Below, piece by piece: positions 11,105-49,879 of a DNA stretch of 64,000 bases. Made by a program: the position numbers and the translations under genes. The stretch comes from Stegostoma tigrinum (Eukaryota), in contig NW_026728611.1 of assembly GCF_030684315.1 (NCBI RefSeq), positions 310,001 to 374,000 of the forward strand. The letters are read 5' to 3'. Within the stretch, counting starts at the first letter, position 1. Each line of letters starts with the position of its first letter. The notes under the pieces were generated by a model. The model had not been told where the DNA came from and searched no databases. It worked only from the letters and a program-made list of their open reading frames with translations.

Positions 11105-11294
11105 GTATCTACGTCTCATTGACCAGTGTCTTCAAACATTCTAACTCCTATAACTGCTCCTATTTCTGTCACCCCCTCCCCTCTCTACAATCCCTCTATA
11201 CATTTGAAACATACTCCAGTCCTGACCACCACCCCTATCTCTGTAACTTGCTTCAGTCTCTGCAACATGCCTTATCTCAATAGTCTCTTCTTCC

Positions 11295-14460: not shown

Positions 14461-14467
14461 TCACCAT

Positions 14468-14922
14468 CCTGTGCCACCCGAAGGCTGCAGGGACAGCATC
14501 TCATTTTGCTTGGGAACCCTGTAGCCCCAGTATCAATGTGGACTTTGAAAGCTTCAAAATCTCCCCACCCCCGACTTCATCCCAAAACCAGCCAAGTTCG
14601 TCCTGACCGCTTTGACCTGTCAGTATTATCTCCCATCTGTCCACTTCTCCCACCTCACTGACAAAACCCCATCCTAACTCCCTCCCTACCCTCACTTTTA
14701 CTGGAGCCATCCCCGCTTCCTTGGCCTCTCTGTCTTTTCTCCATCTATGTGCTCCGTTATCCACTCGCTGTTGTTGCCTCCCCACCTCTTTCTATGTATT
14801 TCAGAGTCCACTTCGCTCTCCCCACCCCTTTCTGAAGAAGTGTCCAGACACAAAGCATCAGCTTTCCTGCTCCTCTGCTGCCTGGCCTGCTGTGTTCATC
14901 CAGTTCTATACATTATTATCTT
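14468..14922 (+). mobile_element. PLE (Neptune-like) 3' fragment
   Basis: RRLQGQHLI..LGTL..P.INVDF (end of the GIY-YIG ORF) plus the 3' tail shared with 25621-26300. Absent in paralog B. Confidence 0.75.
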
Positions 14923-20339: not shown

Positions 20340-23300
20340 GAGCCATAGAGTTGTGCAGCACAGAAACTGACCCCTAGACCCAACTCATCCATATGGCTCA
20401 GGTTTCCTGAATTGAACAAGTCACATTTGCCTGAATTTGGCACATTCGTTTCAAAACGTTCCTGTCTGTGTATCTGCCCCAATAACTTTTCATTGTTGTA
20501 GCTTCGTCTGGCAGCTCGTTCCATGTATGCACCATTCTCTGCGTGGTTAATGTTACCTCTCAGGTCTCCTTTAAACATTTTCCCTCTCACCTCAAACCTC
20601 CTCCCTCTAGTTTTGGATTCCCCTCCCCTGGGGGGAGGGGGGTAGGGGACAGATGTTGGCTGTTCATCTTAACTATGCTGCTCAGGCATTCATATACCTC
20701 TAAAAGTTCACCTCTCAGTCTCCTGCCCTTGAGTCAAACGTCTGTGCTTGGGTGTGACAAATTCATCCCTGATTTCCAAAAGTACTCTGAAATACTTGAT
20801 TAAGCTTTTTAAGACCTTCACCACCTGTCTCTTGTAGTCGAGACTCTTTGCAAGACATCACTCTTTATTTCCCTGAATTTCCTGGTCTTTCTCCACAGTC
20901 AGTACTGACATGAAATACTGTTTCGTATTTCACCCACCTGCTGTGGTTCTCCATACCGATATCCTCGTTCATGTGTCTGCAGCCCTATTTCCTCCCTTAT
21001 CACTCTTTTGCCCTTGATATACCTATGGAATCTCTTTGTAATTTCCTTAACTTGGACCAATAATGTTATCTCGCATCCCTTTTTGTCCTCTGGAATTCCT
21101 TCATAAACTTTATTTCTACATTCCCATAGTCCTCGAAGGATTCATCAATCCAGCTCTTTATCACCTCTTTCTTAACCTGAGCGCCTCTGTCACCAGTCAT
21201 CCAGAGTTTCCTCCTTCTGTCAGCATTGTCCTTCGCACTAACAGGAACATGCCGGCTCTGACCTCTCTCTTTTGAAAGCTTCCAACTTGCCAGATGCCCC
21301 TTTACCTGTAAATAGCCTCCCCTACAATCTTTTGAAAATTCCTGTCAAATACCATCAAAATTGTTCTTGCCCCACTTTATAACTTTAGCTTGTGGACCAG
21401 GCCATTCTTTTTCCATAGCTATTTTCAGAGTAATAAAATTATGAGTCACGTTCCCAAAGTGCTGCCCCAATGACACCTCAGTCCCTTGCCCGACTTGGTT
21501 TCGCACGTGGAGGTCAGGATTTGCCCCTTCTCCAGTCAGGTCATCTTCATATTGTTTGAGAGAGTTTTTCTAAATATACTTAACAAATTCTTCCAATCAA
21601 AGCGCTTAACACTGTGGCAGTACCAGCCTAAGCTTGGTAAAATAGAAACCCTGATGATTACATACCTATTATTATTACAGATATCTAAGATCTCCCAACA
21701 TATGTGCTCCTCAATCACCCACCGACTTTGGGGGACCTGCTGTACAATTGTATCAAAGCGATCACGCATTCTCTTTCTTTCAGTTCCACTAAAATCGCCT
21801 CACTGGGCGAACGCCAGGAATATTCTCTATAAATGCTGCTGTCATGCTGTCTCATTCAAAAATAGCTCTTCACTCCCATCTTGCCTCCAGCTACTATACT
21901 TCCTGTAGTGCCTGTACCCTGGATCATTGATCTGCTCATCCTTTCTCTCCATCAGCTGTGTTTCTGTATTACCTTTTGATATCCCAGACGCTGTTCCCAC
22001 CTGTGCCCTGAATTTATCTGTCCTACCTGTACGGTCCATTGCATTGAAATACATGCAGTTTAATTCCTCAGTTTTACCTCATTTTCTGCCCTGGTCTTGC
22101 CTGCCTTGTCTGGTTAAATTGCTACCTTGAACTTCTGTGCCAGCCTCTTCTTGCCTCACTACGGTTTCGGGCCCGACACCCCTTCTAGGCTGCATAAAAT
22201 CTTTTGGGTACCTCTGACGATTCACGTTGCCCTTCCCCCAGTTCACTTGACTTCACCACCCTGTCTGTCTGTGTTGACACCTTCAGTGATCTATGGACGT
22301 GTGTACCAAGGCCCTCTTGTTTTTCAGTTCTCAGCCTGTACCTACAGTTCAATACGTCTTTCACTTACTATACCTCCGAAAGCATATTACTTCACACTTA
22401 TTAGAAATAAGTGCCATCTGCCATTACTCTGCCAAGTTCATCAGCTGATCAATATCAGACTGTAGTCTGAGATGATCCACCTCACTATGGACAACACCCC
22501 TAACTTTCGTATCATCTACAAACCTACGATGAAATCTTGTGGTTTCACAACCAAGTCAGTAACGTACATAATAAACATCAATGGACGCTTTACAGATCCA
22601 TGTGGCTTGCTGATAGTCAAAGACTTTAATCACAAAAATAAAACTCCACCAGTTTGGATCTCTTTTGTCAACTTGCCTCAAACTCCATGGGTTTTTACCT
22701 TTTGAACCGGCCTTCCATGCCGGATGTTGTCACAGGCCTTCCTGCGGGTCTTTGCAAACCACTTCATCTGCACTGCCCTCATCAATATTTGTTGGCAAAA
22801 TTTCAAAGAACTTGACTGAATTCATCAGACATGATCTCTCTTTACCAAAACCGTGCTGACTACCCCTAATCGATTCCTTCCTTTGCAAGTTTTCGTTCAA
22901 ACTTTCCCTCAGATTTTTTTTTCCAATAAGTTCCCTCCCACGGATATCAGATTGTCTGCTTTCCAATTACCTGGCCATTCTCTGATGCCCTTCTTGAGGA
23001 AAGGAAACACATTAACTGTCCTCCAGACATTCAGCACATCACCTGTGGCCACCAAGACATTAAATGTAACTGCCAGGCCTTGTCAATCTCCTTCCTTGCC
23101 TCTTATAGCAGCCTGGGATACATTTCATTGGGCACTAGTGATTTATCCACCATTACCCTTACAAAAGCATTTAATTCTTGCTTCTTATTGATCGTAACAT
23201 GTTCGAGGACCTCACCATCCTAACTGAAGTCCCTGACTACAATGTATTTCTCCTTTGTGAACACAGGTGAGAAGCATAAATTTCAGACCTCACCTACTTC

Positions 23301-23900
23301 CTCTTGCTCTATGCAAAATATGCCCCTTCACTTTCTACCAGTCTTCACTCTCCATGGTAATCCTCTTCCTCTAACTAAATTTATAAAATACCTTGTGGCT
23401 TTTCCCTTAACAGTACCTGCCAAAGGTAATTCTAGGCCATTGTTTGCCCTTCATTTTTAACGACCACCTTTTGCAAACTCTATACTTTTGAAGGCCTGTA
23501 CCTATTTTCATTGTGCAGTGTTTTATTTACCAAACTCATATCAATTCATCAGCATTCACTGAAATTCTACCTTTTTCATTCTCTCTTTGCGGAACACAAT
23601 GGCCCTGGATTCTGATTGTACCACTTTATAATGGTCCCACTTTCCAATTATAGACTCGATTGCAAGTAATTCTTCCTCCAGTCTATATGTGCCAGATCCT
23701 GTCTCATGATAGTGATAATGCTGAGTGATAGAAGTGATCTTCTGATAATTGTCTTTCAGCAAATTTAGACACTTAACTTCCGTGCTATCCTTATCGCTTT
23801 CCATAACAACATTCATATTTCGAGTCACTATCTCTCTACCCCCACCAAAAAAATTGGAGGTAGGAGGAAACTTTATTTGACTTTTCAGTTGCATTTTAAC
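20340..23900 (-). mobile_element. Nested degenerate CR1 fragments (paralogous to 11295-15200)
   Basis: KMFKGDLRGN and GSQHGFGKERSCLMNSVKFFE...IDEGSADEVV motifs. Confidence 0.7.
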
Positions 23901-25190
23901 AGGGTCCCACTGAAGAAGCGAATAAACAACTCGGGACCACGTGGACTTGGAGGTGATGTGCTGGCATGCGTTTGAGAATTGTTCAACATACAGAAAAGCC
24001 CATGCTAATAAATAGTTGGTTTGTCAGCTCACAGGCTGTGCATTTTTATTAGACGAAGGATTCATGTTTGGGCTCCAGTTATTTACAAATTCCTGTCGAT
24101 GATTGAGGTGTACAGATGAAATCTTATGTTTTCATATTGGTTGATGGCATGACCACAGCTGAGATTGTGAGCTGCACAGAGAATGCAAAGAGGATGAAGG
24201 GGACATGAATAGTCTCTGAGTTTCATCGCATATTAATGCATGGGATATGCCCATCACTGGCTCTGTCATCATTTAATTCCCATATCTAATTGCCTGGACA
24301 AGATGGTGGTAGTTCTTAGCAATGTTAACTTTGGTTTCTCATCACATATGTTGAGCTTTTTAATGTATCAATAGATTTACTTTTTGTTATAAATTCCAAA
24401 GAGTTCAGGTTCGTTCTTTTCCATGTCTTCTCATGAAAATCCTTTCATCAACAAGATCAATCTTCTGATTCTTCTCTAGAATGCCTCCATGGAAAGATTT
24501 ATTCCCCCGAATATAGGGAATACTGTTCACAGCATTCTCGGTGTGGGCCAAGTTATGCATTCTCGAGTTTTTACCAAACTTCCCTATTTCCATTCTCTAT
24601 TCCATTTGAAATGCCAGCATTCCATTTGCCTTCTCTATGACCTGCTGAATATTCATGCAACCTTTTGAGTTTAATACACAATGAATCCCAAGTTGCAATC
24701 AATCTGAAACTAAGAGGTGACAGTAATAATCAGGCAAGGACTGGAATGTGTGATAAAATATAAGCCAGGAATGACAGCTACACGCTTAGAAATCAATGGG
24801 AGACATAGTACAAAGGGTTATAAATTGTAGGAGTGAAGTAAGGTCATTCATTCTATCGAGTCTGCTGCACAATTGAGTCTGCTGCACAATTTGATTGTGC
24901 CTTATATCTGTCTCAAACTCACTCTCTTGCCTTGATCCGTTTGAATCTTGATCCCCTTATTCATCAAGAACCTACCTATCTCTATCTCCAATTCATGCAG
25001 TGATTTCACCTCCGCAGCCCTCTGTGGCAATGTACAGATTCAGTACCCTCTGGCTGAAGAAATCCCTCCACATCTCTGTTCGTAAGGGTGAGAGATAATG
25101 GGAACTGCAGATGCTGGAGAATCCAAGATGATAAAATGTGAGGCTGGATGAACACAGCAGGCCAAGCAGCATCTCAGGAGCACAAAAGCT

Positions 25191-25218
25191 GACGTTTCGG
25201 GCCTAGACCCTTCATCAG
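25191..25218 (-). ncRNA. Minimal type-I hammerhead ribozyme motif
   Basis: CUGAUGA-A-GGGUCUAGGCCC-GAAA-C-GUC: complete core, stem II and a palindromic ACGU in place of stem III. Confidence 0.75.
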
Positions 25219-26208
25219 AGAGGGGGATGGGGTGAGGGTTCTGGGATAAATAGGGAGAGAGGGGGAGGCGGACCGAAGATGGAGAGAAAAGAAGATAGGT
25301 GGGGAGGTAGGGAGGGGATAGGTCGGTCCAGGGAAGACGGACAGGTCAAGGAGGTGGGATGAGGTTGGTAGGTAGGAGATGGAGGTGCAGCTTGGGGTGG
25401 GAGGAAGGGATGGGTGAGAGGAAGAACAGGTTAAGGACGCAGAGACAGGCTGGACTGGTTTTGGGATGCAGTGGGTGGAGGGGAAGAGCTGGGCTGGTTA
25501 TGTGGTGCAGTGGGGGGAGGGGACGAACTGGGCTGGTTTAGGGATGCGGTGGGGGAAGGGGAGATTTTGAAGCTGGTGAAGTCAACAGTGATGCCATTAG
25601 GCTGCAGGGTCCCCAAGCCTTGGGGACCGCTTTGCAGAACACCTCCGCTCGGTTCGCAACAAACAACTGCACCTCCCAGTCGCAAACCATTTCCACTCCC
25701 CCTCCCATTCTTTAGATGACATGACAATCATGGGCCTCCTGCAGTGCCACAATGATGCCACCTGAAGGTTGCAGGAACAGCAACTCATATTCCGCTTGGG
25801 AACCCTGCAGCCCAATGGTCTCAATGTGGACTTCACCAGCTTCAAAATCTCCCCTTCCCCCACCGCATCCCTAAACCAGCCCAGTTCGTCCCCTCCCCGC
25901 GTTGTACCACACAACCAGCCCAGATCTTCCCCTCCACCCACGGCATCCCAAAACCAGACCAACCTGTCTCCGCCTCCCTAACCGGCTCTTCCTCTCACCC
26001 ATCCCTTCCTCCCACCCCAAGCCGCACCCCCATCTCCTACCTACTAACCTCATCCCACCTCCTTGACCTGTCCATCTTCCCTGGACCGACCTATCTCCTC
26101 CCTACCTCCCCACCTATACTGTCTCCACCTATCTTCTTTTCTCTCCATCTTCGGTCCGCCTCCCCCTCTTTCCCTATTTATTCCAGAACCCTCACCCCAT
26201 CCCCCTCT

Positions 26209-26236
26209 CTGATGAAGGGTCTAGGCTCGAAACGTC
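26209..26236 (+). ncRNA. Minimal type-I hammerhead ribozyme motif
   Basis: CUGAUGA-A-GGGUCUAGGCUC-GAAA-C-GUC, with an additional G.U pair in stem II. Confidence 0.7.
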
Positions 26237-28399
26237 AGCTTTTGTGCTCCTGAGATGCTGTTTGGCCTGCTGTTTTCATCCAGCCTCACATTTTATTATC
26301 TCTGTTCTAAAGGGTTATGCCTTCACACAGAGGCTCTCGCCTAGCCTCTCCTACCAAGAGAAACATCTTCTCCACTTCCACTCTCTCCACACCCCTCCGT
26401 ATTCTATCAGTTTGGATGCATTTGTGCGTCTTCCATCGAAACCTCATCAAATACAGCCCCAGAACCCTTAACTAACTGTGCTTCAGATTGTTTGCCATTC
26501 AGAAAATAGTCGGCAGGATTCCACCCTACATCAGCGGTAACCCTAAAGAGTTTCAAATCCATCGCCTTAATCACTTGGCCATAAATATGTGATTGCACTC
26601 GCATGGTCTCTCGCACTGTATTTTTTTTATTGAATATCGCTGTTGTGAGGATGCAGATGAATCTGTCACCTGATTCCGGGACAAAAATCGATCCCATTTG
26701 TGAAATGTTTCATGACCTGAAGTCTACTGCCTCACATTTTCCTCTCTTTGTGATAATTAAACAGGTTTGTTGTTTCTAAACATGGGCCTCTTGCATACTC
26801 AGTGAATCAAAATGAAAATGGAGCAGATAACGACAAAACAAGCTCACTGCCTGGTTGAGGGGATCCTGCAGTTTTCAAACTTCCTCAAATGGAACAAGAA
26901 ATAATTGCAAGTGTGTTTGTGTCATTCACACAATGGGACACTTATTGTGTGAAACCAGCTGAGCTGCAGATTCCAGTTGGTAGGATTCAAACAACACGTG
27001 AGCGAACCCATTGCATTACCAACCCATTACTTAACCACTCAGCCACGATTGTGTCAAAGTTTACAGCTCACAGTCGCCTCTTGCATTGGATTTCATCTGC
27101 AAATATCGCTGAATAGGGTTGATGGATGGAAATCCCAAGCAAATCTGTCGAGAAAATCCTTACCATTCCGGTATTATTGCATGGCCTTTCTGATTTCTCT
27201 GTTACTTTTTCCTCTCTATTGGGAAATAATCAACTTTGTTGTTTCAAAGCATGGTCATCTTGCATTCTCCATGAACATGGGAAACATTGAATGTGGAGAA
27301 ATATTGCACTGAGTAATGTACTAGTGAAGTCCCAGCAACGTTCAACATTGTGGCCATTCATTCTTTTAAGTATATTTCAGGAGAAATTGGTGGATTTTTG
27401 CCTGGATAATTTGTAGCCATGAACATTGAACAGAGAAGGCAAAAGAAACTAACTCAGAGACAACAAGAAGTGCAGACACCGGAGTCAGAGATTCTATGGA
27501 GCTGGAGGAACACAGCAGGCCAGGCAGCATCAGAGAAGCAGAAACTGACCACTTAGTTTCAGGGTTCCTGCCAATTGTGCATGCACCTATGCTTGTGATG
27601 CATTTGCTAAGCACATTTGGCTTTTAATCAGAAGACCGAGTGTTTTGGGCAGTGCCAGGGACAAAACTAGGGTTTCCTATTGCCCAGCCAGCATTCTCTG
27701 GTTCTTGCTGTGCAAATTTACAATGTGTGAAGACGCCGACAAATATTTCCAGCTAAACTGCCAATGTTCCAACTTCACAACGTTCACTGATATTGTAATG
27801 GTGCTCTCAATCTCTTCTGATTTTTATCCCCCTCTCCTTCTAATGTAATCATCAGCACCTTCCTCAGAAATAACCCTGTACCTTACCATACCCACAGACA
27901 ACTGACCTTCCGTTGCAGTACTTGTACCTGGTATCCACAAGGTTATATCCATGGTGTGTCATATTTCTCATCAACATGCTTCCACTGATGGAATAATCGA
28001 AAAGTGCTGTTAATTTTCACACACCCACTGACAACAACCAGATCTAGCTCAACACCCTCCCTATCCACTCCAACATTTCAGGAATATCCTCCATTTTAAA
28101 CTTTACAAATCCATGCCATCGTATTTGATTGCTGCTGAAAGTTCCATTCCCCAATTTCCAAGTTCTTTCCTATCCTGGTAACTGTCTAAAGCTGAAGAAT
28201 GACACATGGCAAGTGATTAAAATGGAGAAACGTCGTACAGTGCTGTCTGATCCAACAGTAGCCTGCACAGCTACTGCCTTTGCTGTCCTGTTTTGTGTAT
28301 CGTTGGATATCGGAGCTTGTTCTGAGAAAAATAAGGAAACAACCAAATTCACATCTAACCTTGGAGAAACCTATGGGTGGGAACTCACAACAGGAGAGC

Positions 28400-31300
28400 A
28401 GCAAAATGGCCTTTGAAAATGTAACTTTTAGTTTCTTTTTGTAAATCTACAGTAGTGAGTAGAGTTTTATCTTATAATATGTTGTTATTGAGATCTGCCT
28501 CTTGGTTTTAATTTTTTAAAATTTAACAAAGTTATAAGCTATCCTGGAGCAGTGTTTTTAGAGCATTAAGTCTGTTCTTTTCTGGGTCTGTCGATTGTTG
28601 AGATGCAAAGATGGCCTTTAGTAGAGTGATGTGCTCTTTATGTTGAATGTGGGAGTTTAGGGAGAGTTTCCATGTTATAGATGACTATGCCCAACGTAAG
28701 TGTGTTAGGCTGCAAATCCGAAAGATTTGCATGGATTGGTTGGAGTGGCAGTTAGAGGCAAGTAGAAATTTACACAAGCAAGGGGAAAGGATGGATGTCA
28801 GTTGCAGGGAGAGAGATAAACTGGAATGCAGTCAGGTATTCGTTGACCTCCAGGAAAGGGAGATGGAGTCAGGTATTGCAGGAGTCTCCTGTGGCTATCC
28901 CCATCTCAAACAAGTGCGCTGTGTTGAAAAATGTGGGGAGTGGTGGATTCTCTGGAGAATGCAGCACTGACAACCAGTTTCCTGGTCCAGAGACTGTCTC
29001 TAAGGTGACACCAGTTCCAGGCCATTGATTATGAGAGGGGACTTTCTAGCCAGAGGTACAGACAGGTGTTTCTGCAGCTGACAGCGAGACATCAGAATGA
29101 TGTATTGCCTCCCTGGAGCCAGAATCAAAGAAATCTCAGAGAGAGTATGAAATATGCTCAAAGGCGAGAGAGATCAGCAGGTGGTCATTGTACACATTGG
29201 AAATAATGACATAGGAAGAGAACAGATGAGATTATGAGGAGACAACATAGGAAGTTAAGCAAGAATTTAAAAATTAGCTCATCAAGGATAGAAATATTTG
29301 GATTACTCACAGGGCCACAAGCTAGTGGGGGTAGGAACATGAGGCTAGAGCAGATGAATGCATGGTTGAGGAGCTTGTGCAGAGGAGAAGAATCCACATT
29401 TTTGGATCGCTGAAATATCTTCTGGGGTAGGAACCACCTGTACAAGAAGGACGGATTGGATATGAATTGGAAGGGAGCAAATATACTGGCAGGGAGTTTT
29501 GCTAGAGATGCTCGGGAAGATTTAAACTGGAGGGGTAGGGGAGGGGATGTTTTGTGAACCAGGGAGACCGTGAAGAAAGAGATCAGTCTGAGACTGGTTA
29601 GGTTGGGAAAAATTGTAAGTCAAACGGACAGGGCAGACAGGAACCAAGTAGAGAACTGCATTTATTTCAATGAAAAATCCCCAGCAGGCAAGGCCGATGA
29701 CCTTGGAACATGGCTCAGAATGCGAGACTGGGATAGCAGAGAGACATGGCTCGGGAATAGACAGGACTGGCAGCTTCATGGTTCAGGAATAGATGTTATA
29801 GTAAAGATCAAAAGAAGATGTTTGGACAAGAGAGGATGGGGAGTTGCACTTTTGAAGAAGGGTGACATTGCAGCTATATTTATCCAAAGAAGCCCAGGGA
29901 TGTTATTTGGCTGGAATTGAGAAATAAGAAAGGTTTGATCACATTACTGCAAGTGGAAATCGATAAACAAATATTAAAAAACATCTCAGCTATCTGTAAG
30001 AATAATAGGTGGTTATGGAAGGGGGTTTTAAATTTCCAAACATGGACTAGGACTACCATAGTGTTCAGGTCTTAGATGCAGAGGAATTGGTTGAGCAGGT
30101 ACAAGAAAATGTTCTAATTCAGTGTGTGGATGTACCTTCTGGAAAAGACGAAAAACTTGACCTGCTCTTAGGAAATAAAGCAGGGCAGGTGCCTGAAGCA
30201 TCAGTAGAAGAACACTTTGGGGCCAGTGACTATACTTCAATGAGTTATAAAGTAGTTATGGACAGGGATAGACCGGATCTAATAGTTAAAGTTCTGAATT
30301 GGAGGAAGGCCAATTTTGGTAGACTTAGGCAAGAACTTTCAAAAATTGATGGGGGGTGGTGGTGGGAGCAGGTGGAGGGTACAGTTATACCAAGGTAAAT
30401 GGAGACATGGAAAATGTGAAGTGTTCAAAAATGAGAGCTCAGACACAGTATGTTCCTGTTATTGCGAAGGACAAGGCAGGTTGATACAGGAAATGCTGGA
30501 TGATAAGAGAAATTCAGCTTCTGATCAAGAAGACGAAAGCATATGTGAGGTATAGGCAGCATAATAGAGTGATTTTCTAGAAGAGTGTAATGGCAGCAGG
30601 AGTGCACTTAAGAGGGAATGCAGGAGGGCAAAAAGGGGACATGAGTTTGCTTTGTCAAACAGTGTGTGGAGAATCCAAAGAGTTTCCACAAATACATTAA
30701 GGGGGAAAAGGAAGAGTAACTGGGGAGAGAACAGGGCCCCATAAGCATAAGCCATGCCACCTATGTGTGGAACTGCAGGAGGCAGGTGAGATGTTACACA
30801 AGTATCTCAGATCAGTGTTTACTGGGGAGAAGGATATAGAAGATAGAGAACACATGGAAATAAATTAAAATCTTGTAAGATGCCACTGTTACGGAGGAAG
30901 AAATGCAGCATATCTCCAAATGTATAAAGTTGGGTAAATCCCCAAGACCTATCGAGAGTATGCTAGAACTCTGTGGGAAACTAAGGAAGTGACTGCTTTG
31001 CCCCTTGCTGAGATATCTGTATCATCGATAGGCACAGGAAAGGTGCTGGGCAGCTGAAGATTGGCTACCTGGTTCCGCTTTTTGAGAAACCTGGTAAGGA
31101 AAAGGGGGGCTCTTGACCAGTGAGCCTGACATCAGTGGTGGGCAAGTTGTTGGAGGGGATTCTCAGGGGCAGGATTCACATGTATTGAGAAAGGCAATGG
31201 ATTGGGGAGAGTCAACATGACTTTATGCCTGAGAAATCATTGTTTGAGTTTTTTTTACCAAAGAGGCCTGATGAGGGCAGAATGGTGGGCATGATCAATA

Positions 31301-31439
31301 TGGACTACAGTTAAGACATTTGACAAGGTTCCTCATGGTAGACTGGCTAGAAAGGTTAGATCACACACAAATAAAGGGAGAACTGGCTATATGGATACCG
31401 AGTTGGCTCAAAGGTAGAAGATGGAGGATGGAGTTGAGA
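28400..31439 (+). mobile_element. Long 5' portion of a degenerate CR1 LINE (ORF1 with SGNH esterase-like domain, APE endonuclease, start of RT)
   Basis: MWEFRESFHVIDDYAQRKCVRLQ (ORF1 N-terminus); CLPGARIK and VIVHIGNND-like esterase blocks; CIYFN, ETWL, GWGVALL, LDLLLGN and EHFGASD (APE); a PVSLTSVVGKLLEG-like motif. Interrupted by an LTR at 31440. Confidence 0.85.
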
Positions 31440-32115
31440 TGTTTTTGGGATAACATCCCGTTGATTTCTATATTTCTATAAATTCATGTCCTTTATCTGC
31501 CTGCACATCGGGATGTAGACACTGCCTTAAGCTTCCTGCCTGAATACAATTCAAGTTAAACTGTGCAAATCTTTATATTCCTGCACGGGGGCATGTGGAA
31601 ACTGTCTCTTAAGATTAAGTGAGGAGCATTTGTAAAGGTGTGAGGCTTCTGAAGTATGAAACTTCTGTCTCTGACAAAGGGGCCAAGGCACTGACTTTTT
31701 TTCAAGCCATACACTTCAGCCACTTGAAATTACATTCTGCTACTTCGGCAACTTGAAATCGCCTCCTGTCATTAGCAGTCACTTCGTGAATGATCGATGC
31801 TATATCCTGCTCTCTTTATGTGTTCGAAGTAGTAATTGTTTTGTATGATGTCTTTGTCATGATTGTTTCATGTATCATGCCATTGTGAGATGTAAAATTG
31901 CTTTATGCATTACACACTTGACAAAGTATAAAAAGCGGGACTGACCGCTGCCCAGGGTGAATGGCTTGCGAGACTCTGTACGCTGTGCTGGGTTAAGTAC
32001 AGTGATTTTCCACAGCTTGTACTTGCTTGGTAATAAAAGTTTTGTGTTTCTCTAAACAGGTCTGTGTCTCGTCGTTGCATCAAGTCCGTGAGTGTCTCCG
32101 AAAATGAACATAACA
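31440..32115 (+). mobile_element. ERV/LTR-element 5' LTR (676 bp)
   Basis: TGTT...AACA termini, TATAAAA at 31927 and AATAAA at 32032. A PBS follows 2 nt later. Confidence 0.85.
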
Positions 32116-32117
32116 TT

Positions 32118-32135
32118 TGGTGCCGTGACCAGGAT
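32118..32135 (+). promoter_or_regulatory. Primer-binding site, tRNA-His type, followed by retroviral leader to about 32519
   Basis: TGGTGCCGTGACCAGGAT matches the complement of the vertebrate tRNA-His 3' end (TGGTGCCGTGACTCGGAT) at 16/18. The leader carries splice-donor-like AG|GTAAG near 32220 and 32362. Confidence 0.8.
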
Positions 32136-32519
32136 TGCAACACGTACAGCAGTCTCATGTGGAGGGCTGAATAAGGGATCGATCGAGTGTCAGTGGAGTG
32201 AGACAGACAGGCCCGCAAGGTAAGATTCACCTTGGTCTCTCTCACTAGCCTGCCACCCGTGCGACCCCTCATCCCTGTGTGGCTCTGTACTGACGGAACC
32301 CCAAGACGACTCACGGTCTTGAACACTGCTAAATCTTAATGCCTGGAGGTTCAAGACTCCAGGTAAGTAAAGAAATCCGGGAGGTTCGAGTCCCTAGAAC
32401 AGGTAAATGGGAAAATAAAATCCGGGAGGTTAGAGTCCCGCAGTGGCCAGGGCAAGAGTCCCTAGGTCAGATAACTGGGAAGAGGGAGGGGATTAGTATA
32501 AGATTGGGAAGGTATAATA

Positions 32520-32978
32520 GGTTCTGGATGTGAGTTTGCTCGCTGAGCTGGAAGTAGTTTTCAGACGTTTCGTCACCATTCTAGGTAACACCATCAGTGA
32601 GCCTCCGACGAAGCGTTGGTGTTATGTCCCGCTTTCTATTTATCTGGTTAGGTTTCCTTTGGTTGGTGATGTCATTTCCTGTTCTTTTTCTCAGGGGATG
32701 GTAGATTGGCTCCAAATCAATGTGTTTGTTGATGGAGTTCCGGTTGGAATGCCATGCTTCGAGGAATTCTCGTGCATGTCTCTGTTTGGCTTGTCCTAGG
32801 ATGGATGTGTTGTCCCAGTCAAAGTGGTGTCCTTCCTTATCTGTATGTACGGATACGAGTGACAGTGGGTCATGTCGTTTTGTGGCTAGTTGGTGTTCAT
32901 GTATCCTGGTGGCTAGCTTTCTGCCAGTTTGTCCAATGTAGTGTTTGTCACAGTTCTTGCAAGGTATTTTGTAGATGA
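32520..32978 (-). mobile_element. PLE (Poseidon-like) 3' fragment with open GIY-YIG domain
   Basis: The minus strand reads IIYKIPCKNCDKHYIGQTGRKLATRIHEHQLATKRHDPLSLVSVHTDKEGHHFDWDNTSILGQAKQRHAREFLEAWHS, followed by a hammerhead-bearing tail. Confidence 0.9.
32561..32600 (-). ncRNA. Minimal hammerhead ribozyme motif (Poseidon-like PLE; A9G variant)
   Basis: UCA-CUGAUGG-U-GUUACC-UAGAAU-GGUGAC-GAAA-C-GUC-UGA: 6-bp stem II and 3-bp stem I. Confidence 0.65.
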
Positions 32979-33226
32979 TCTACCCCTCCCTACCCCCACC
33001 TATACTCTCCTCTCCACCTATCTTTTTTTCTCTCCATCTTCGGTCTGCCTCCCCCTCTCTCCCTATTTATTCCAGAACCCTTACCCCATCCCCCTCTCTG
33101 ATGAAGGGTCTAGGCCCGAAACGTCAGCTTTTGTGCTCCTGAGATGCTGCTTGGCCTGCTGTGTTCATCCAGCCTCACATTTTATTATCTTGGATTCTCC
33201 AGCATCTGCAGTTCCCATTATCACTC
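32979..33226 (+). mobile_element. Neptune-like PLE 3' tail with intact hammerhead motif (33098-33125)
   Basis: Near-identical to the reverse complement of 25090-25310. Contains CTGATGAAGGGTCTAGGCCCGAAACGTC. Confidence 0.9.
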
Positions 33227-33544
33227 ATGGTGTTTTAAACTCTGGTTACCACGCCTCAGGCAATGGGGAGGGTTAAGATGGTGGGACCCTCATGGTCACC
33301 TTAGCTAGTAGAGGAATTGATCATGTGTTGCTGGCATCACACTATATCACAAACCAGCCATCCACCCAACTAAGCTAACACACCCTGACCAATGCACAAT
33401 GCACCATTGAGGATAGTCTGTCCTCCCTTTGTGTACTCAATATATAGATGTAGAAAACCATCAGGAATTTATCATATATAGTCTTGTTACTGATTTGATT
33501 TGCTCAATTTTTGTGCAGATTGAAGTCATCCACAATAATCCTCA

Positions 33545-34255
33545 GAACACAAGGTATGGGAGCAGAGTTAGGCTATTTGGCCCAGAAGACTGTTCAACCA
33601 TTTGATTGTGACTGATATGTTTCTCAACCTCTTTCTCCTAACTTCTGGAACCATTGATCCCATTACCAATCAAGAACCTAATCACCTGTGTCATAAATAC
33701 ATTCAAAGGCTTGGCCTCCACATTCCTCTATGGCAATGAGTTTCACAAAATCATCGCCCTCTGACTGAAGAAATTCCTCCTCATCTCAGTTCTAAAGGGT
33801 CATCCCTTCACATTGAGGCGGTGCCCTCAGGTTCTCGCCTCTCCTATTAGTTGAAACATCTTCTCCATGTCCATCTATCCAGGTCTCTCATTATTCTGTA
33901 AGTTTCCGTCACAGCCATAGAGTCTGACAACTTGAAAGCAGACCCTCGGCCCAACTAATCCATACCGACCATGTTCTGAAACTAAAGTAGTCCCATCTGG
34001 CTGCACATGGCCCATATCTTTCCGAACATTTCTTATTTATGTACTTATCCAAATGGCTTTCAAACGTTGTCACTGTGCCTGTATCCGCGACTTGTTTTGG
34101 AAGTTCATTTCACATACCAACCATGGTGTGCAAAAAGGTAGCCCACTTTGCTGGAAAGTGACTCCTCTCACCTTAAAAATATGCCCCTTTGTCTTGTTAT
34201 CTCCCACCCTGAGGAAACAACAACTGCCATTCACTTTCCGTATGCCCCTCAAGGA
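33545..34255 (-). mobile_element. CR1 3' end fragments
   Basis: FLRVGDNKTKGHIFKVRG-type C-terminus and CR1 tails. Confidence 0.6.
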
Positions 34256-34394
34256 CAGGTCTTAAACATTTACTGGGAAGGCCCTGGGTTGTGTTGAACC
34301 CAGATACCTGCGTGCCCTAGATGGTGCCATAAGTGGCCACTTGTAAACGGTTCATTGTACTTATGTAAGTGCATGTGACTCCATGATTTCTGAA

Positions 34395-34850
34395 TTCTCT
34401 ACAATCCTCTACAACCTCCTTGTTATACCTCTAAGGTATGTTTGGGCCCTTGGATATTGGGGGAGGGAGGTGGTAAATGGACAGGTGTTGCACCTTCGTC
34501 AGTTACGGGGGAAGGTGCCAGAGGGCTGTGGGGAGGTGTTGGGGGTGAAGGAAGTGTGGAACAGGGTGTCCCGGAGGGAATGGTCTCTGCGGAAAGCGGA
34601 CCAGAGAGGGAAGGGGCATATGTGTCTGGTGGTGGAATCTTGCTGTAGGTGGAGGAAATAGCGTCTGATGATCTTCTAGATGTGAATGCTGATCGGATGG
34701 TAGGTAAGGATAAGGTGAACCCTATCACGGTTGTGGGAGGGAAGAGATGGGGTGAGGCTGGAATTGCGGGAGATGGGTCGGACCTGGTTGAGGGTCCCAT
34801 TGACAACGGAGCTGTGGACTCCTCGGTTGAGGAAGAAGGCCATATTTATG
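34395..34850 (-). mobile_element. Neptune-like PLE internal fragment
   Basis: MAFFLNRGVHSSVVNGTLNQVRPISRNSSLTPSLPSHNRDRVHLILTYHP (RT thumb/linker). Similar to 36700-37100. Confidence 0.7.
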
Positions 34851-35374: not shown

Positions 35375-37805
35375 AAAAAAACCAAATTACTGCGAATGCT
35401 GGAATTCTGAAACAAAAATAAACAAAGAGACAAAGCTGGTGACACTCAGCAGGTCTAGCATTATCTGTGGTGCCGTCTGAGAACAGTCAACGTTTCTACC
35501 TGACTTTTGTTGCACACAGCTCCAGTTTTGTTCTCAATTCCGCTGCCTCTCTCACCAAATCCAACCTATCTCCCGCTGAACTGACTGCACTCCGTGCACT
35601 CAGATCCAACCCTGGCTTTGTCTTTGAGCCGACTGACAAGGGAGATGTTGTTACAGTCTGGTGTAGTGACCTCTACCATGCAGAGGCTGAGCGCTAACTC
35701 TCCGATACCTCCTCCTACCTTCCTCTGGACCATGTGCCGCCATGGTACATCACACCATTGTATCCACTACTGTTAGTGATCACATTTCATCCATTGATAT
35801 CCCCCCCCCCAACCCCGCCTCCCCCATCAACCCGCCCCGCTTCCAAGCTAATAGTCTCCCCCAACCCTGCACAGCTCGTTTCTACCTCCTCCCAAAAATC
35901 CACAAACAGGTCTGCCCAGGCTTACCCATTGTTACAACCTACCCATGGCCCGCAGAACTCATCTCTTCCTACCTCAACTCAGTCTTCTTTCCCCTGTCCA
36001 ATCTCTACCTACATACATCCATGATTCATCTGACGCCTTGTGCCAATTTCAAAACTTCCAGTTTACCAGCTCCAACCGCCTCCTCTTTACTATGGATGTG
36101 CAATCCTTTTACACATGCATTCCCTACCACGAGGGTTTTAGGGCTCCATGCGTCTTCCCGGAGCAAAGACCTGAGCCATCCCCACCCACCACCAGCCTCC
36201 TCTGTTTGTCTGAGCTTGTCCTCACCATCAACAACTTCTCTTTGAACTCCTCTCATTTTCTTCCGGTCAGAGGGGTTACCATGTGTACCCGGATGGGCCC
36301 GGGTTATGCGTGTGGCTTCATGGGGTACGTGGAACATTCCTCGTTCCAGTCCTATTCCAACCCCACCCATAACTCTTTCTCTGATACATCGATGAGATCA
36401 TCGGTGCTGCTTCCCTCTCTCATTTGGAATTGGAAAAATTGATTAATTTCCCCTTCAATTTCCACTCTGCCCTCACTTTCACCTGGTCTATCTCTGACTC
36501 CTTCCTTCCCTCCCTCAACATTTCTGTTTCCATTTCTGCGATAGACAGGCCACTAATATCCATTACAAACCCACTGACTACCACAGCAACCTGGACTATA
36601 CATCCTCACATCCCACCTCCTGTAAAGACTCCATCCCATTCTCTCTGTTCCTCCAACTCCTTCACATATGTTTAGATGAAACCAAAATCAACAAGGTTGC
36701 CTCCAACATTTCCACATTTTTCTCAACTGAGGATGCCCCAGCAATGTTATCAACAGGGCCCTCAATTGGATCCACCCCATTTCCTGCACTTACACCCACA
36801 ACCTTTCTCTTCCCTCCAGCAAAAGCGATAGAGTTCCCCTTGTTCTTACCTACTGTCCCACCAGCATCCACATCCAGAAGATTATCAAGTGCCATATCTG
36901 CCACCTCCAACAAGATGCCACCACCAGGTGGTGTATACCTCTCCCTCCCTTGGCTGCCTTCTTCAAGCACTGTTCCCTCTGGGACTTCCTGTTCCACACT
37001 GCCTTCACCCCATCAACCTCCACAGCCTAACGGCACCTTCCCCTGCTACCTATAAAGGTCTAACTCCTGCTCATTTACCTCCAACCTTCCCAGCATCCAT
37101 GGGCCCAATTATACCTTCCAATGAAGCAACATTTCACCTGCATTTCCCAGAATCTCGTCCACTGCATTCTCTGCTCACAATGTGGTCTCCTCTACACTGG
37201 GGAAGTGAAGTGCAGACTGGGTGACTGCTTCACAGATCATCTACGTTCAGCTTGCAAAAGAAACCCTGAAGTACCTGTTGCTTCCCACTTTAACATACCA
37301 TCCTGTTCCCTGGCCAACATGTCTGTCTCTGACTTACTGCAGTCTTCGAGTGAAGCCCCACACAAGCTGGAAGAAAATCACCTCATTTTTATACATGGGG
37401 ACCCTGCAGACATCCAGACTCAATATCGAGTTCAAATGTTTTAGGACCTGAACTCTCCCGTGTTCCAGCCCCAAACCCCACACACAAGGACTTGTTACGA
37501 CATAGCCTGTCTTTGCACTCTGCCTGTTCTTGGTCACTAATAGTTCCTATTAACAACTAATCACGCTCGCAGCCTAATCATGTTCACTGCTTTGTCTGTC
37601 CAACTTCTATTTTCTCTTTCTTTAGGCTCTATCCTATCATTTATTCCCTATTCCTTCCCCTCCCCTTTCTTCTGCATATAAACTTACATTTTCCCAGCCT
37701 CCGTCAGTTCTGAGGGACGGTGACCAGGCCAGAAAAGTTAACGGCTTTCTCCTTCACAGATGCTGCCAGACCTGCTGAGCTTTTCCAGCAACTTTGTTTT
37801 TGTAA
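35375..37805 (+). mobile_element. Near-full-length degenerate PLE (Neptune-like): RT + GIY-YIG with an inverted 5' tail
   Basis: RT motifs: PTDKGDVVTVW, RFYLLPKIHK, LFTMDVQSFYTCIP, LVLTINNFSLN...GVTMCTRMGPGYA, YIDE. Endonuclease: KQHFTC...VHCILCSQCGLLYTGEVKCRLGDCFTDHLRS. Frameshifted. Decayed hammerhead near 37710-37739. 35375-35470 is an inverted copy of the 3' tail. Confidence 0.9.
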
Positions 37806-41350: not shown

Positions 41351-41514
41351 ATCGACAAGAGAAAGAGAAAAGTGCTGGAAAAGCTCAGCAGATATGGCAG
41401 TATCTGTGAAGAGAAAAAAGAATTAATGTTTCAGATCCAGTGACTCTTCCTCAGAACTGATGGTAGCCAGGAAACTGTGTCTTTCTAGCCTCTCCTCCCT
41501 TTAATCCAGGCAGC

Positions 41515-41998: not shown

Positions 41999-42906
41999 TT
42001 AATGAGTGAATTTGATTGATCGGTGAATTTGGGTAAAGGGATATTTCAGCACATTCTTCAGCTGTTGCCTGAACTTAGTCTGGGTCACGGCATAAATCAC
42101 GGTGTTTGTGCAGCAACCGAGGAGCTGCAGCATGAAGCCCAATTCCTGCACACAGCGGTCTAGATACACAGACTTATACCCAAACCACCACATCCGGTTC
42201 CACATTGAATACACCATTAACATTGACCACAACAGGACGAAATTGGCCGAGATCACAAACAGAAAAATGATGGATTTTTTTCGATTTCTCATTTCTGTGT
42301 CACACTGACCGTCCCCATTGGTGTGAGCCCGGAGTCTCCTGCGGGCTCTGCTGGTCACTAAAATGTGTCTGACGGTGAAAACATTGAGCAGCAGAATCAG
42401 GAGAAATGGGAGAGCCGGGGTTAGAATGTGGTGGAGGAACTCGATTGTGACCCAGGCACGAGAGTCATAAACACCGTCTGTTACATCACAAAACCAGGGG
42501 GCGTTCACCAGCCAATAGCGAGCTGTGAGCATAAAATACCAGAAAATGTTCTTTAAACAGCTCAGCACAGTCACTGTTCCCAGAACCACAGCCGCCGTTT
42601 TCTCACTGCAATATTTACTTTTCAGCTTCTGGCAATAAATGGCCACAAATCGATCAAAGGTGAAAGTGACGGTGAACCAGACAGAACAGTCAGTGGCTGC
42701 ATAAAGCAGGACGGCGTGGATATTACACACAGGGATGAAGAACAGGAAATAAAACTGTTCCCGATAAACAATGGGAATGTGTCTCAATATCAGATCAAGG
42801 ATAATGAGCAGTAAATCCGCTGCTGCCATGGCCCCCAGGTAACGTCTGACACATGGAGATAATCCACAATCTTTATAAAGCAGGACGTAGATCGTCACTA
42901 CGTTAA
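41999..42906 (-). CDS. Exon 2 of GPR139/GPR142-like class A GPCR (TM1 to C-terminus); spliced product 360 aa
   Basis: A polypyrimidine tract and AG acceptor (TTTGTTTTCTTTCTCCATAG) precede an uninterrupted frame VNVVTIYVLLYKDCGLS. Motifs: YLGAMAAADLL (TM2), PVCN (TM3 Cys), FTFDRFVAI (DRY-like), PWFC (ECL2 Cys), RRRLR (ICL3), CCTNTVIYAVTQTKFRQQL (NPxxY-like plus helix 8). Ends in TAA. Confidence 0.95.
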
Positions 42907-43460
42907 CTATGGAGAAAGAAAACAAATAAATTATACATCAGCCTGGAGGCAAAGCCACCAGTTTGGATGAGGATCCAGTGCGATTTTTAAATGTGTCGCT
43001 GTATTCAGAGATTTATTAAAGATATTGAGGCTGAAATGCAAATGGTAGGTTCTAAATTACTTACAAAAATGTGGCGTAAAGTACAAAAAACACTCCCCCT
43101 CCAAACACACAGGCACTCATCCATAATAACAGGTGGTTTCTCGAGCGTTCCCACATAATTGATCGCTCAATATCATGCAGAAGTCACTTCTTTGCAGTTT
43201 CTAATATGGAGGGTGAAAACATTGCTGTCCCGAAGGAAAATTGAATTAAAATTGAGGTTGGAAATTTTTGTCTTTTGGTCTAAACAGTGGTCGACCCTCA
43301 GTAATGAAGAAATGTAACTCAGGGAAAACTTATTCACCTCTTTAACTACACCGGGGGACTTCGAAACAATGTTTCCTTCCTCTCCCTGGAATGGGATCTC
43401 TTCTTTCAGGACATTATATTTTGTTCAAGTAATTGACCTCCGGGCGTTCACAGGTAATGC

Positions 43461-46654: not shown

Positions 46655-46800
46655 TTCTCTCAGTTCTGACGAAGGGTCACCGGACCTGGAACATTGACTC
46701 TGATTTTTGTTCATGAATGCTGCCAGACCTGCTGAGTCTTTCCAACAACTTCAGTTTCTGTTCCTGATTTATAGCATCCATAGCTTTTTTTTCAGTTTTT
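46655..46800 (+). mobile_element. PLE 3' tail with decayed hammerhead (third tail family)
   Basis: CAGTT-CTGACGA-A-GGGTCACCGGACCT-GGAACATT-GACTCTGA. Related copies lie at 47827-47856(+), 41425-41454(-) and 37710-37739(+). Confidence 0.65.
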
Positions 46801-47480: not shown

Positions 47481-49879
47481 ACTGGAAGATGCCATCCAGC
47501 TTCACAAGTCTGTCATACAACTGCACGACCTGTTAGCTCGCTTGCACAATTACTGAGAGAAAAAAAAAATCATAAATACATCGTTCAGATTGTGAGGATG
47601 CTTTTCAGAAACAGAAGAAAGGCTTCCAGTCAATAGAAGCTGTAAGTAATGTGAATGGACCATTCAGTCCCTCAATTCCATTCCATGGGTAAAGCACACA
47701 GCTATTCGAACCTATTGTTCAGGATCAGGAGGAACACGTCTGTTTTCATGATAAAAAAACTAAAAGATTGTGGATGTTGTAAATCAGGAACAAAAGCAGA
47801 AGCTGGTGGAAAAATTCAGAATAATTCTGAAGCAGGGTCACCGGACCTGAAACGTTAACTCTGATTTTCTCTTCACAGATGCTGTCCGACTTGCTGATGT
47901 TTTCACAAAGCTGGCACACAGGGACAGAACAAAGCCATTTAACTGCTCGAGACGATACACAGTTTGATCTGGAGGTCAGTAAGTCTCCAGGATTCTGTTA
48001 CCCAGGAACAGGAGGAGGCAACTCACTCTCCACCACTATGGTACACTGGCAGGCACGGTGATTTGGCTTGTTACAAACAGAAATATATGAATACGTTGCA
48101 GGAGTGGGCCATTCAATCCTGTTCCCCCAGTCAATAATATTCAATGTAATTGTGATTCCTCACCCATTTCCCTCTCTGCAGGTTCTGCGCTGTTTTCTGG
48201 CCATGTTACAGACAGAGACACTGTAACTACAGTCATGACGACTCATCTAGCATGGGTCACCAAAGCATCTGGTCTTCCTGAATGCCCACAGAAGATTAAA
48301 ACACAACCTTGAGGAAACTATCCCGAGCATTTCCATGAACCTCCCAAAAAGAATTAAGTGAAACACTACTCAACGCCAAGTTCGAAGCCTAGTCTGAATC
48401 AATAAGAGTCCGGGGATTCCAGAACAAATGATCAGCTGAGAGAGACTAACACAGACGTTCAGTAGACCGTCACAGAACACGTTACAAAGGTGTACCCCTT
48501 AGCTGTTGAATATCTCTTGTCCAACATGGAGCACCGCGCAGGACACTGGGAAGTGAAAGAAAGTGCAAGCAATCGTTTTTTTTTCAATGTCAGTTTCATA
48601 ATGATGAACTGAATGTTCCAGAGTGAATGACACAATAGGTCAGTGAGGATACGGGACATCAGTTCAAGTTAAACTGGACAATTACTTAATGGGCAACAAG
48701 ATGCAGCAATACGTGGGTAGACAGCAGAATGGGACTCGCCTGGGGATTCAGAATTTGGAGGGTGCAATCGTAAGAATGAGAGCATAAAATAAATATGCTG
48801 CCCGGTCAGCTAAAATTGAATTTAAAAAAAAAATCACATTCACAATCCAGTTCACAGAATCAGCCCAGACACCATAAATTCAGAGAAGGCATCCGTTCAG
48901 CATCGAACACTGTGCAAACCAGGATAGTGTTCGTCTCAATGCAAGCTGGCAATCTGTCCAGTGTGGAACACTGATTACACCAAACCAGTGCATTGACCTA
49001 TAAACCCAAACTAGACATCTACCCACCGCAAGGACCACAGCAGTGCACTGTTCTATAAGCCCAGAGAAGATAACTGTGCAGCATGGGGAGCTGAGCAGAC
49101 CACGGCTTGCATTGAGTTATAAATTTAAACTATGTATCTGTCGCCTTGTCGAGCTGTGCAAACCACCCCAGTGTATTGCTCAGTAACACTGCCGAAGATC
49201 ACAACGTGTAGAGCTGGATGAACACAGCATGCCAAACAGCACCAGAGGAGCAAGAAGGCTGACATTTCAGGCTTAGGCCCTTTTTCATCCAGCTCTACAC
49301 CTTGTGGTCCCAGATTCACCAGCACCTGCAGTTCATACTATCACTGCCTTAGTTCGCTCTCAGCTTGGGGAACCTTGCAGCCCATGCTGGAAGTGACAGG
49401 ATATGAGGCTCCCATCCATTTGCATCTCCATATCCCCAACGTGCCATGACAAAGGGTGCTGTGGATGCGAGCATCACTGCCAGAGAGAGATGCCAGGGAA
49501 TCAGTTTAAATACCAACCAAAACAAGGGGTTCAGAATATACTACAGAGAAAGGAAAACTGAGAGATAATGTCATGGAGGGATGTGTTCACGGGTTTCAGA
49601 ATGCTGAAGTGAAAATATTTTGATAGCACCTTGCAACATGGGCCAATGTTTCCCACAATGACGGGGCTATGGAATTTTGGTGAGTTCAGTTGACGGAGAG
49701 TGTTGGATGACTATTTGTTCCGTAACTTTGAAACTCAGAGTGGCGACAGCAGAACCTTTGACTCATTGGGTTCAACCTTGCAATATTTTGTCTCAGAGTC
49801 ATTTTCATTGAGTTTGACAGGGAACATCTGCATGAGGCCAAGCTAATTTCCTGCTTCTACCTTGTCAATCTCACCTCAT

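What the first reader, a model, noticed from the sequence alone, without database searches (positions are those of the whole stretch)
25090..33226. Minimal hammerhead ribozymes in three distinct shark Penelope tail families
Seen: intact CUGAUGA-stem II-GAAA-CGUC cores at 25191-25218(-), 26209-26236(+) and 33098-33125(+). A second family with a different 6-bp stem II lies at 32561-32600(-). A third family (CAGUU-CUGANGA-A-GGGUCACCGGACCY-GAAACGUU-AACU) lies outside the stated span at 37710, 41425(-), 46666 and 47827. The families keep the catalytic core and an extra nucleotide between positions 9 and 10.1 while stem II differs between them; the better-preserved copies also keep the palindromic ACGU. 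Established: PLEs carry minimal type-I hammerheads that lack a stable stem III and can cleave as dimers. Inference: this genome hosts a dense population of self-cleaving RNA motifs from several PLE lineages. Some lie in or near a GPCR transcription unit; the 41425 copy is on the gene's sense strand about 550 nt past the stop codon.
Basis: partly seen in the sequence, partly recalled or inferred. Interest (0 to 1): 0.7.

Follow-up and report, generated by a model that had tools for sequence, protein, structure and literature searches.

The report
Penelope hammerheads at capped transcript start
These are the ends of broken Penelope-type jumping genes carrying a known kind of tiny self-cutting RNA motif, found about 185,000 times in this genome; the copies' front ends likely record that the motif sits at the capped start of the element's RNA and is cut in only a minority of RNAs, and nothing here ties it to the nearby receptor gene.

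Summary
The motifs are real. They are the published minimal type I hammerheads of Penelope-like elements (PLEs; PMC4209133). Of 8 named copies only the 3 family-A copies are intact. The family-B copy and all 4 family-C copies are damaged. A and C are Neptune/Nematis-type and B is Poseidon-type.

Genome-wide a loose core pattern matches 184,707 times, against 234 for the reversed control. The core is unchanged between lineages, but inserted copies decay about like their flanks (Fisher p 0.20 and 0.60).

In A, 6,919 copies begin exactly 4 bases before the core, with G in front in 27 of 30 inspected. That is likely the capped transcript start, and C shows the same edge. A smaller excess begins at the predicted cut site: 1,051 against 295, 327 and 427 at neighbouring bases.

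A link to the GPCR is not supported: the nearby copy is damaged and has no intact same-strand partner within 16 kb. Cleavage was not tested. This scan noted the same features before, in this genome and others (702 notes).

The parts
25091..25618 (-). Family A (Neptune/Nematis-type PLE) 5'-truncated arm: end of GIY-YIG coding region, pLTR, and 34-nt tail at its 3' end
   Evidence: 92% identical to the full unit in L263; translation
25191..25218 (-). Intact minimal hammerhead core, family A; predicted cut between 25191 and 25190
25616..26301 (+). Family A second arm, inverted to the first, 5'-truncated in GIY-YIG, no tail
26209..26236 (+). Minimal hammerhead core, family A; one G-U wobble in stem II
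25072..25089 (+). Left copy of a likely 18-bp target-site duplication (16 of 18 identical to 26298-26315)
   Evidence: sequence; an uninterrupted relative of the host repeat at 777-1653 aligns to both flanks
26298..26315 (+). Right copy of the likely target-site duplication, overlapping the element end by 3-4 bases
32519..32979 (-). Family B (Poseidon-type PLE) 3' fragment: GIY-YIG C-terminal coding part and pLTR
   Evidence: open frame; GIY-YIG PF01541 E=0.0012, below the curated cutoff
32561..32600 (-). Family B hammerhead with 3-bp stem I and 6-bp stem II; A9>G at 32591, predicted inactive
   Evidence: intact form in 8,639 genomic matches
32985..33226 (+). Family A short copy with tail, head-to-head with the family B fragment
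33064..33070 (+). TATA-like TATTTAT, 30 bases before the predicted start
   Evidence: sequence; function inferred
33094..33094 (+). Predicted transcription start (4 bases before C3)
   Evidence: 6,919 genomic copies begin here; G in front in 27 of 30; single-G joints at this place in contigs of run X4
33098..33125 (+). Intact minimal hammerhead core, family A; predicted cut between 33125 and 33126
   Evidence: excess of copies starting at the cut
33191..33225 (+). Tail between the two 3' end points (about +93 and +127 from C3)
   Evidence: 3' ends; PMC11167929 for the two RT start sites
35546..37803 (+). Family C (Neptune/Nematis-type) decayed copy with RT, linker, GIY-YIG, TATAAA at 37677-37682 and a dead hammerhead at 37710
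41362..41478 (-). Family C stub; core letters kept, palindrome and stem II damaged; C3 at 41454, 545 nt past the GPCR stop
41999..42937 (-). Rhodopsin-family GPCR reading frame (stop to stop, no start Met; likely last coding exon)
   Evidence: PF00001 E=3.7e-16
46660..46761 (+). Family C stub beginning at the predicted start; A13>G, predicted inactive
47825..47904 (+). Family C stub beginning at the predicted start; A9>C, predicted inactive

Best explanation
These motifs are minimal type I hammerheads in the terminal repeats of three Penelope-like retroelement families, left in truncated insertions that decay about like their flanks, and in families A and C the motif likely forms the first 30-35 bases of the element's capped transcript. 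Shown: each motif lies in a PLE end; a full unit (L263) has two cores 3,528 nt apart on one strand around the RT-GIY-YIG frame; short copies start sharply 4 bases before the core, mostly with a G in front; a smaller excess starts at the predicted cut. Inferred: RNA polymerase II starts at -4 behind a TATA-like box. The element protein primes reverse transcription at two internal sites about 93 and 127 bases past C3 (shown for the Anolis element). Priming in the front repeat runs off the capped end and writes short stubs with an uncut ribozyme and a cap-derived G. A minority of RNAs is cut after C17, likely as a protein-assisted dimer paired through ACGU, and these give copies that start at the cut. 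Selection keeps the core in the source elements, not in the inserted copies, so most genomic motifs would be silent by-products.
For: PLE context. Density. Structure across families (275 distinct motifs from loci partly chosen by pattern): stem I 2, 4 and 3 bp and stem II 4, 5 and 6 bp in A, C and B; pair II.3 of B is U-G 33, U-A 7, C-G 6 of 46. Core fixed between A subfamilies (0 of 11 core against 10 of 63 flank positions differ). Start pile-up: 26 of 139 unselected A hits at -4..+1 against 10 over the 76 bases -85..-10; family C 25 of 55 hits at -8..0 and none at -119..-9; 6,919 exact -4 starts, G in front in 27 of 30, and in 6 of the 8 without an inverted partner; genomic G+C is about 21% each. 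Cut-site excess: A 1,051 against 295, 327, 427, 2.6-fold after composition correction; 26 of 30 inspected are true front ends; B 48 against 21 and 22, 1.9-fold. Literature: PMC11167929 found uncut RNA the dominant substrate and cleavage only with protein.
Against: No cleavage assay and no RNA-end data; start, cap and cut are read from DNA junctions only. Many front ends are inverted joints where microhomology can favour a base: 15 of 30 at the cut site and 22 of 30 at -4. Palindromic pairs and segmental duplicates are counted more than once. In the small unselected samples the cut-site excess is not evident (3 of 139 in A, two of them one palindrome; 2 of 55 in C). Family A has only a 2-bp stem I (third pair formed in 8% of 180), and its predicted minimum-energy folds pair the core with itself rather than forming the hammerhead (z -1.1). 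Family B shows no pile-up at the core. Within-family core conservation is not significant. PMC11167929 found no RNA-seq reads ending at the cut site in Anolis, and D. virilis Penelope has a TATA-less internal promoter with an intron before the motif (PMC2377424, PMC4209133).
Confidence: 0.72

Rival explanations
1. The ribozyme is kept in source elements but leaves no trace in DNA: the excess of copies at the cut site comes from microhomology, fold-back at the AGCU palindrome, or RT pausing at the structure.
For: 15 of 30 cut-site loci are inverted joints, some with 2-3 shared bases; the unselected samples show no clear peak; hammerhead mutants did not affect insertion in vitro (PMC11167929).
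Against: The pattern excluded the perfect AGCU fold-back. The inverted partners end at many different places, and 11 of 30 have direct or non-inverted flanks. The neighbouring positions also carry microhomology classes yet give 2.5-3.6 times fewer hits. Family B, with another sequence at its cut, repeats the excess.
Confidence: 0.2
2. The dispersed motifs act as self-cleaving elements in host transcripts, for example trimming the GPCR 3' UTR.
For: About 185,000 intact cores must fall in many introns and UTRs; 16 of the first 100 listed cores have a same-strand neighbour within 4 kb; the 41454 copy is sense to the GPCR.
Against: The 41454 copy has lost the palindrome and part of stem II and does not fold as a hammerhead; an ATTAAA hexamer lies about 50 nt before its core; the nearest intact same-strand core is 16 kb away; the median same-strand spacing is 12 kb; inserted copies decay like their flanks.
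Confidence: 0.05
3. Cleavage is an obligatory step: the two hammerheads of a unit cut out a 3.5-kb monomer that is circularised and serves as the main template (model of PMC4209133).
For: A unit with two same-strand cores 3,528 nt apart exists; some head-to-tail joints go from a 3' end to the cut site (2 of 30; 5 of 12 listed joints).
Against: Starts at -4 outnumber starts at the cut about 6 to 1, so uncut capped RNA is the commoner template for short copies; cleavage was dispensable in vitro (PMC11167929). This does not exclude circles for long copies, which I did not test.
Confidence: 0.12

Closest known systems
[quoted passage not shown]
   Same: Type I, no helix III loop, palindromic 15-16 positions, unpaired base between 9 and 10.1, G10.1-C11.1, many families per genome, mostly single dispersed motifs or opposite-strand pairs, reported in fish Xena, Poseidon and Neptune elements.
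   Different: Count: about 185,000 here by a sequence pattern, against about 4,000 (coelacanth) and 9,000 (Xenopus) there by a structural descriptor, so not strictly comparable. Stem I is 2 bp in family A (4-5 bp in their Schistosoma families, 2 bp in D. virilis). No shark genome is named in the parts read.
Poseidon element of Anolis carolinensis (PAc; Frangieh et al. 2024, PMC11167929; parts 1-2 of 4 read, supplements not seen)
   Same: Two RT start sites bounding the tail; start codon at the start of stem II, as in family B, where an open frame runs from the core to the second 3' end; uncut RNA as main template.
   Different: Families A and C carry the linker zinc finger, and in A the first Met of the long frame lies about 170 nt past the core. 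The paper reports no ends at the cut site in RNA-seq, whereas DNA junctions here show an excess.
EN+ PLE insertion structure, Neptune/Nematis and Penelope/Poseidon clades (Craig et al. 2021, PMC8557442; passages read)
   Same: 5'-truncated copies, adjacent inverted copy, 30-40-bp tail at one end, RT followed by GIY-YIG; CX2-5CxxC linker in A and C.
   Different: No tree was built, so Neptune cannot be told from Nematis here.
Non-LTR retrozymes (PMC7229834, passages; bioRxiv 10.64898/2026.07.22.740005, part 1 of 5 and passages)
   Same: Type I hammerheads at high copy number (126,247 in axolotl); PLE origin proposed; one cartilaginous fish sampled in the preprint.
   Different: The copies here are truncated coding elements and single or inverted stubs, not tandem 170-400-nt repeats.

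Membership tests
Minimal type I hammerhead (PLE type) | Core C3-U4-G5-A6-N7-G8-A9 and G12-A13-A14-A15.1, U16.1, H17 | tested here: met
   Met in family A window copies and in thousands of B and C genomic copies; not met in the window's B copy or in 3 of 4 C copies
Minimal type I hammerhead (PLE type) | Stem II with G10.1-C11.1 and an unpaired base after A9 | tested here: met
   First four pairs formed in 91-100% of motifs in each class (sample partly chosen by pattern)
Minimal type I hammerhead (PLE type) | No helix III loop; palindrome at 15.1-16.1 | tested here: met
   CG at 15.2/16.2 in 148 of 180, 33 of 44 and 39 of 46; the rest mostly CpG decay
Minimal type I hammerhead (PLE type) | Stem I closing the motif | tested here: met
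   4 bp in C, 3 bp in B, only 2 bp in A
Minimal type I hammerhead (PLE type) | Self-cleavage after H17, as dimer or with protein | not testable with these tools
   Indirect only: excess of DNA copies starting at the cut
Canonical Rfam hammerhead families | Match to a covariance model | tested here: not met
   No hammerhead among 3 matches at E<=1 in the window
EN+ Penelope-like element | RT followed by C-terminal GIY-YIG in one frame | tested here: met
   L062 frame: RVT_1 E=1.3e-5 and GIY-YIG E=8e-4, both below the curated cutoffs; DKG motif and whole frame in L263
EN+ Penelope-like element | pLTR repeat, inverted truncated partner, 30-40-bp tail at one end | tested here: met
   25091-26301; L263
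Neptune/Nematis clades (families A, C) | CX2-5CxxC linker before GIY-YIG | tested here: met
   Present in A; decayed but alignable in the window's C copy
Neptune clade proper | Placement on an RT tree | not tested
   No reference sequences were at hand
Penelope/Poseidon clade (family B) | Linker finger absent; RT tree placement | tested here: inconclusive
   The window fragment starts at GIY-YIG; the label rests on my recall of fish Poseidon C-termini and on the start codon inside the motif, as in PAc
Non-LTR retrozyme | Tandem non-coding repeats with one hammerhead each | tested here: not met
   Window copies are single or inverted and carry coding remnants

The most novel reading that the evidence does not exclude
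In Neptune-type PLEs the transcription start sits at the front of the ribozyme, so cleavage removes the cap and a 32-34-nt leader. The genome keeps a countable record of both RNA states, capped and cut, at roughly 6 to 1 or more. The hammerhead would then be a protein-gated switch that uncaps a share of element RNA in the germ line, and the junction excess would be in vivo evidence of cleavage by a minimal PLE hammerhead.
Probability: 0.35. Interest if true: 0.65.

Novelty: new member of a known kind. Interest (0 to 1): 0.38.

Why it matters
As motifs this is known biology in one more genome, at a higher count than the published cases I read (126,247 in axolotl; about 9,000 in Xenopus). What the PLE hammerhead does is still open: PMC8557442 calls it unclear and PMC11167929 found it dispensable in vitro. 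The front-end map gives base-exact predictions for the transcript start and the cut, so one CAGE or cyclic-phosphate experiment could show whether minimal hammerheads cut in vivo and how often. No case is made for regulation of the neighbouring GPCR.

Tried and rejected
Rfam scan: no hammerhead match; minimal motifs fall outside the models.

Expression: no RNA holder listed. Runs X1 and X2 are only guessed RNA, contigs only, and carry another subfamily; they cannot show starts or cuts.

Folding: no z-score beyond -1.7 for six motifs, and the minimum-energy folds are not the hammerhead fold. This is usual for hammerheads in my recollection and is not used as support.

A splice-acceptor reading of the bases before the core (as in D. 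virilis) was considered and dropped: the same bases fit an initiator at the pile-up, and L263 needs no intron to reach its first Met. It was not tested on RNA.

Excess conservation of the core within families: not significant.

A tblastn of the RT against phages found nothing and was uninformative.

Lunse et al. 2017 on dimer cleavage was not held; I saw only its citation and the summary in PMC6765202.

No full-length family B or C unit was recovered.

The base before the -4 start was tallied on 30 loci only, not on all 100 listed matches.

Literature searches listed no paper on shark PLE hammerheads or on cap or cut-site junctions in PLEs. The library lacks most subscription journals, and unseen supplements of PMC4209133 and of the 2026 preprint may list shark motifs.
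Full report
1. Observation. The three family-A cores are at the stated places and intact. The family-B motif at 32561-32600(-) has A9>G. The four family-C copies are all damaged: three in the core, one (41454) in the palindrome and stem II. So 3 of 8 named copies are fully intact. Rfam gives no hammerhead match. A loose core pattern matches 184,707 times in the 3.2-Gb genome against 234 for the reversed control; tighter patterns give 8,639 for B and 4,940 for C with 0 controls. In 74 unselected 10-kb stretches there are 49 intact cores, in line with the genome-wide rate.

2. What they sit in. 25091-26301 is one insertion of two inverted, 5'-truncated arms, 92% identical to a full unit found in L263. 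One arm has the 34-nt tail and the other does not. A likely 18-bp target duplication (16 of 18 identical) flanks it, and an uninterrupted relative of the host repeat lies at 777-1653. This is the insertion shape described in PMC8557442 (passages). L263 has two same-strand cores 3,528 nt apart around a frame with DKG motif, RT, CX2-5CxxC linker and GIY-YIG (Pfam hits below cutoff). A and C are therefore Neptune/Nematis-type; no tree was built. B (32519-32979) is a GIY-YIG C-terminal fragment that I label Poseidon-type partly from recall; its motif holds an in-frame ATG at A9-bulge-G10.1, as reported for the Anolis element.

3. Structure. Among 275 distinct motifs in the loci held (partly chosen by pattern), stem II is 4, 5 and 6 bp and stem I is 2, 4 and 3 bp in A, C and B. 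Pair II.3 of the B class takes U-G, U-A and C-G (33, 7, 6 of 46). The unpaired base after A9 and the ACGU palindrome are general. Predicted folds do not favour the hammerhead for a monomer.

4. Selection. Copies were recruited by the downstream flank only (145 hits, 139 with upstream room, 54 spanning the core). The two A subfamilies differ at 10 of 63 flank positions and 0 of 11 core positions. After removing CpG and shared-variant columns, private changes are 5 of 380 in core against 53 of 2,165 in flank (p=0.20) and 8 of 160 against 56 of 845 (p=0.60). Intact: 25 of 38 young A, 4 of 16 older A, 1 of 28 C. G12 decays as a CpG (3 of 39, 6 of 15). The core is thus kept in source lineages, and the sample shows no clear protection after insertion; it is too small to exclude a modest effect.

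5. Front ends. In A, 26 of 139 unselected hits begin at -4..+1 from C3, against 10 over the 76 bases upstream. In C, 25 of 55 hits begin at -8..0, none at -119..-9, and 3 run further upstream; a few of the 55 belong to related families. Genome-wide, 6,919 A copies begin exactly at -4 with four non-matching bases before; 27 of 30 inspected have G in front, 22 of them in inverted joints and 6 of the 8 others. Contigs of run X4 show loose ends at this edge and single-G joints at -4 and -2. TATA-like words lie 30 (A) and 29 (C) bases before -4, and in C the base at -4 is the first base of stem I. I read this as the capped start; it is inference from DNA. Family B shows no such edge at the core.

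6. Cut site. The same pattern test gives 295, 1,051, 327 and 427 A copies starting at +27, +28 (first base after the cut), +29 and +30; expected at +28 from the neighbours is 410. Of 30 inspected, 26 are true front ends (15 inverted, 2 direct, 9 other) and 4 are small indels; control loci were not inspected. B gives 21, 48 and 22, expected 25; 11 of the 48 rows are fold-backs centred on the cut, 8 of them four pairs counted twice. Counts are not independent events, and the small unselected samples do not show the peak.

7. Mechanism. PMC11167929 (parts 1-2 of 4) showed for the Anolis element that RT starts at two internal sites bounding the tail, that the hammerhead cuts only with protein, and that uncut RNA is the main template. 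The ends here fit that: two 3' end points near +93 and +127, a dominant front end at the likely cap, and a minor one at the cut. Dimer cleavage through ACGU follows PMC4209133 (parts 1-2 of 4), where activity in vitro was low. None of this was assayed for these families.

8. GPCR. The frame at 41999-42937(-) is a rhodopsin-family receptor. The C stub's core starts 545 nt past the stop; an ATTAAA lies about 50 nt before it. The stub has lost the palindrome, and the nearest intact same-strand core is at 25191. The 46666 and 47827 stubs are antisense and dead. The pair at 25191/26209 would form a long hairpin in either strand's transcript. I find no support for a role in this gene.

9. Novelty. 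The motif class, its place in PLE repeats and its mass occurrence are published. My six searches listed nothing on shark PLE hammerheads or on cap and cut junctions, within the limits of the library; a 2026 preprint sampled one cartilaginous fish. Earlier notes of this scan report the same edges in this and other genomes. Notes gave me the lead on the start site and the extra G; I tested both here. Verdict: new member of a known kind, interest 0.38.

Noticed in passing
window 8396-15655 and 18713-24355: Old tandem duplication of several kb at 71-79% identity. The first copy carries an older family-A-related insertion at 14472-14922 that the second lacks.
   Followed up: no
window 31560-34726; L002, L008, L027: The whole region with the B/A junction recurs on contigs C154, C529 and C613 at 98.6-99.97% identity: segmental duplicates or haplotigs. 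L027 has A9 intact in B, so the A9>G change is recent.
   Followed up: partly
window 32979-32985: A Poseidon-type fragment and a Neptune-type stub meet head to head with no spacer; I saw no shared target duplication by eye.
   Followed up: no
window about 31460-32450: LTR-like stretch with a poly(A) signal and a primer-binding-site-like word near 32118, read by eye; observed only.
   Followed up: no
window 10773-11013: 241-bp fold-back element with long terminal inverted repeats; weak Rfam miRNA hit far below the gathering score, likely a MITE.
   Followed up: no
   Followed up: no
window 33106-33117: Family A stem II and loop are nearly self-complementary, so two RNAs are predicted to pair as an extended duplex rather than through ACGU; this could compete with or assist dimer formation.
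   Followed up: partly
L157:1483-1562: Family B is predicted to extend stem I with a distal 5-bp helix beyond an internal loop, and its TATA-like word lies about 46 bases before C3, so its start would be about 16 bases upstream.
   Followed up: partly
L263 (G000:C1:1172500-1182000): Near full-length family A unit with frameshifts and a 21-bp tandem repeat in the N-terminal coding part.
   Followed up: partly
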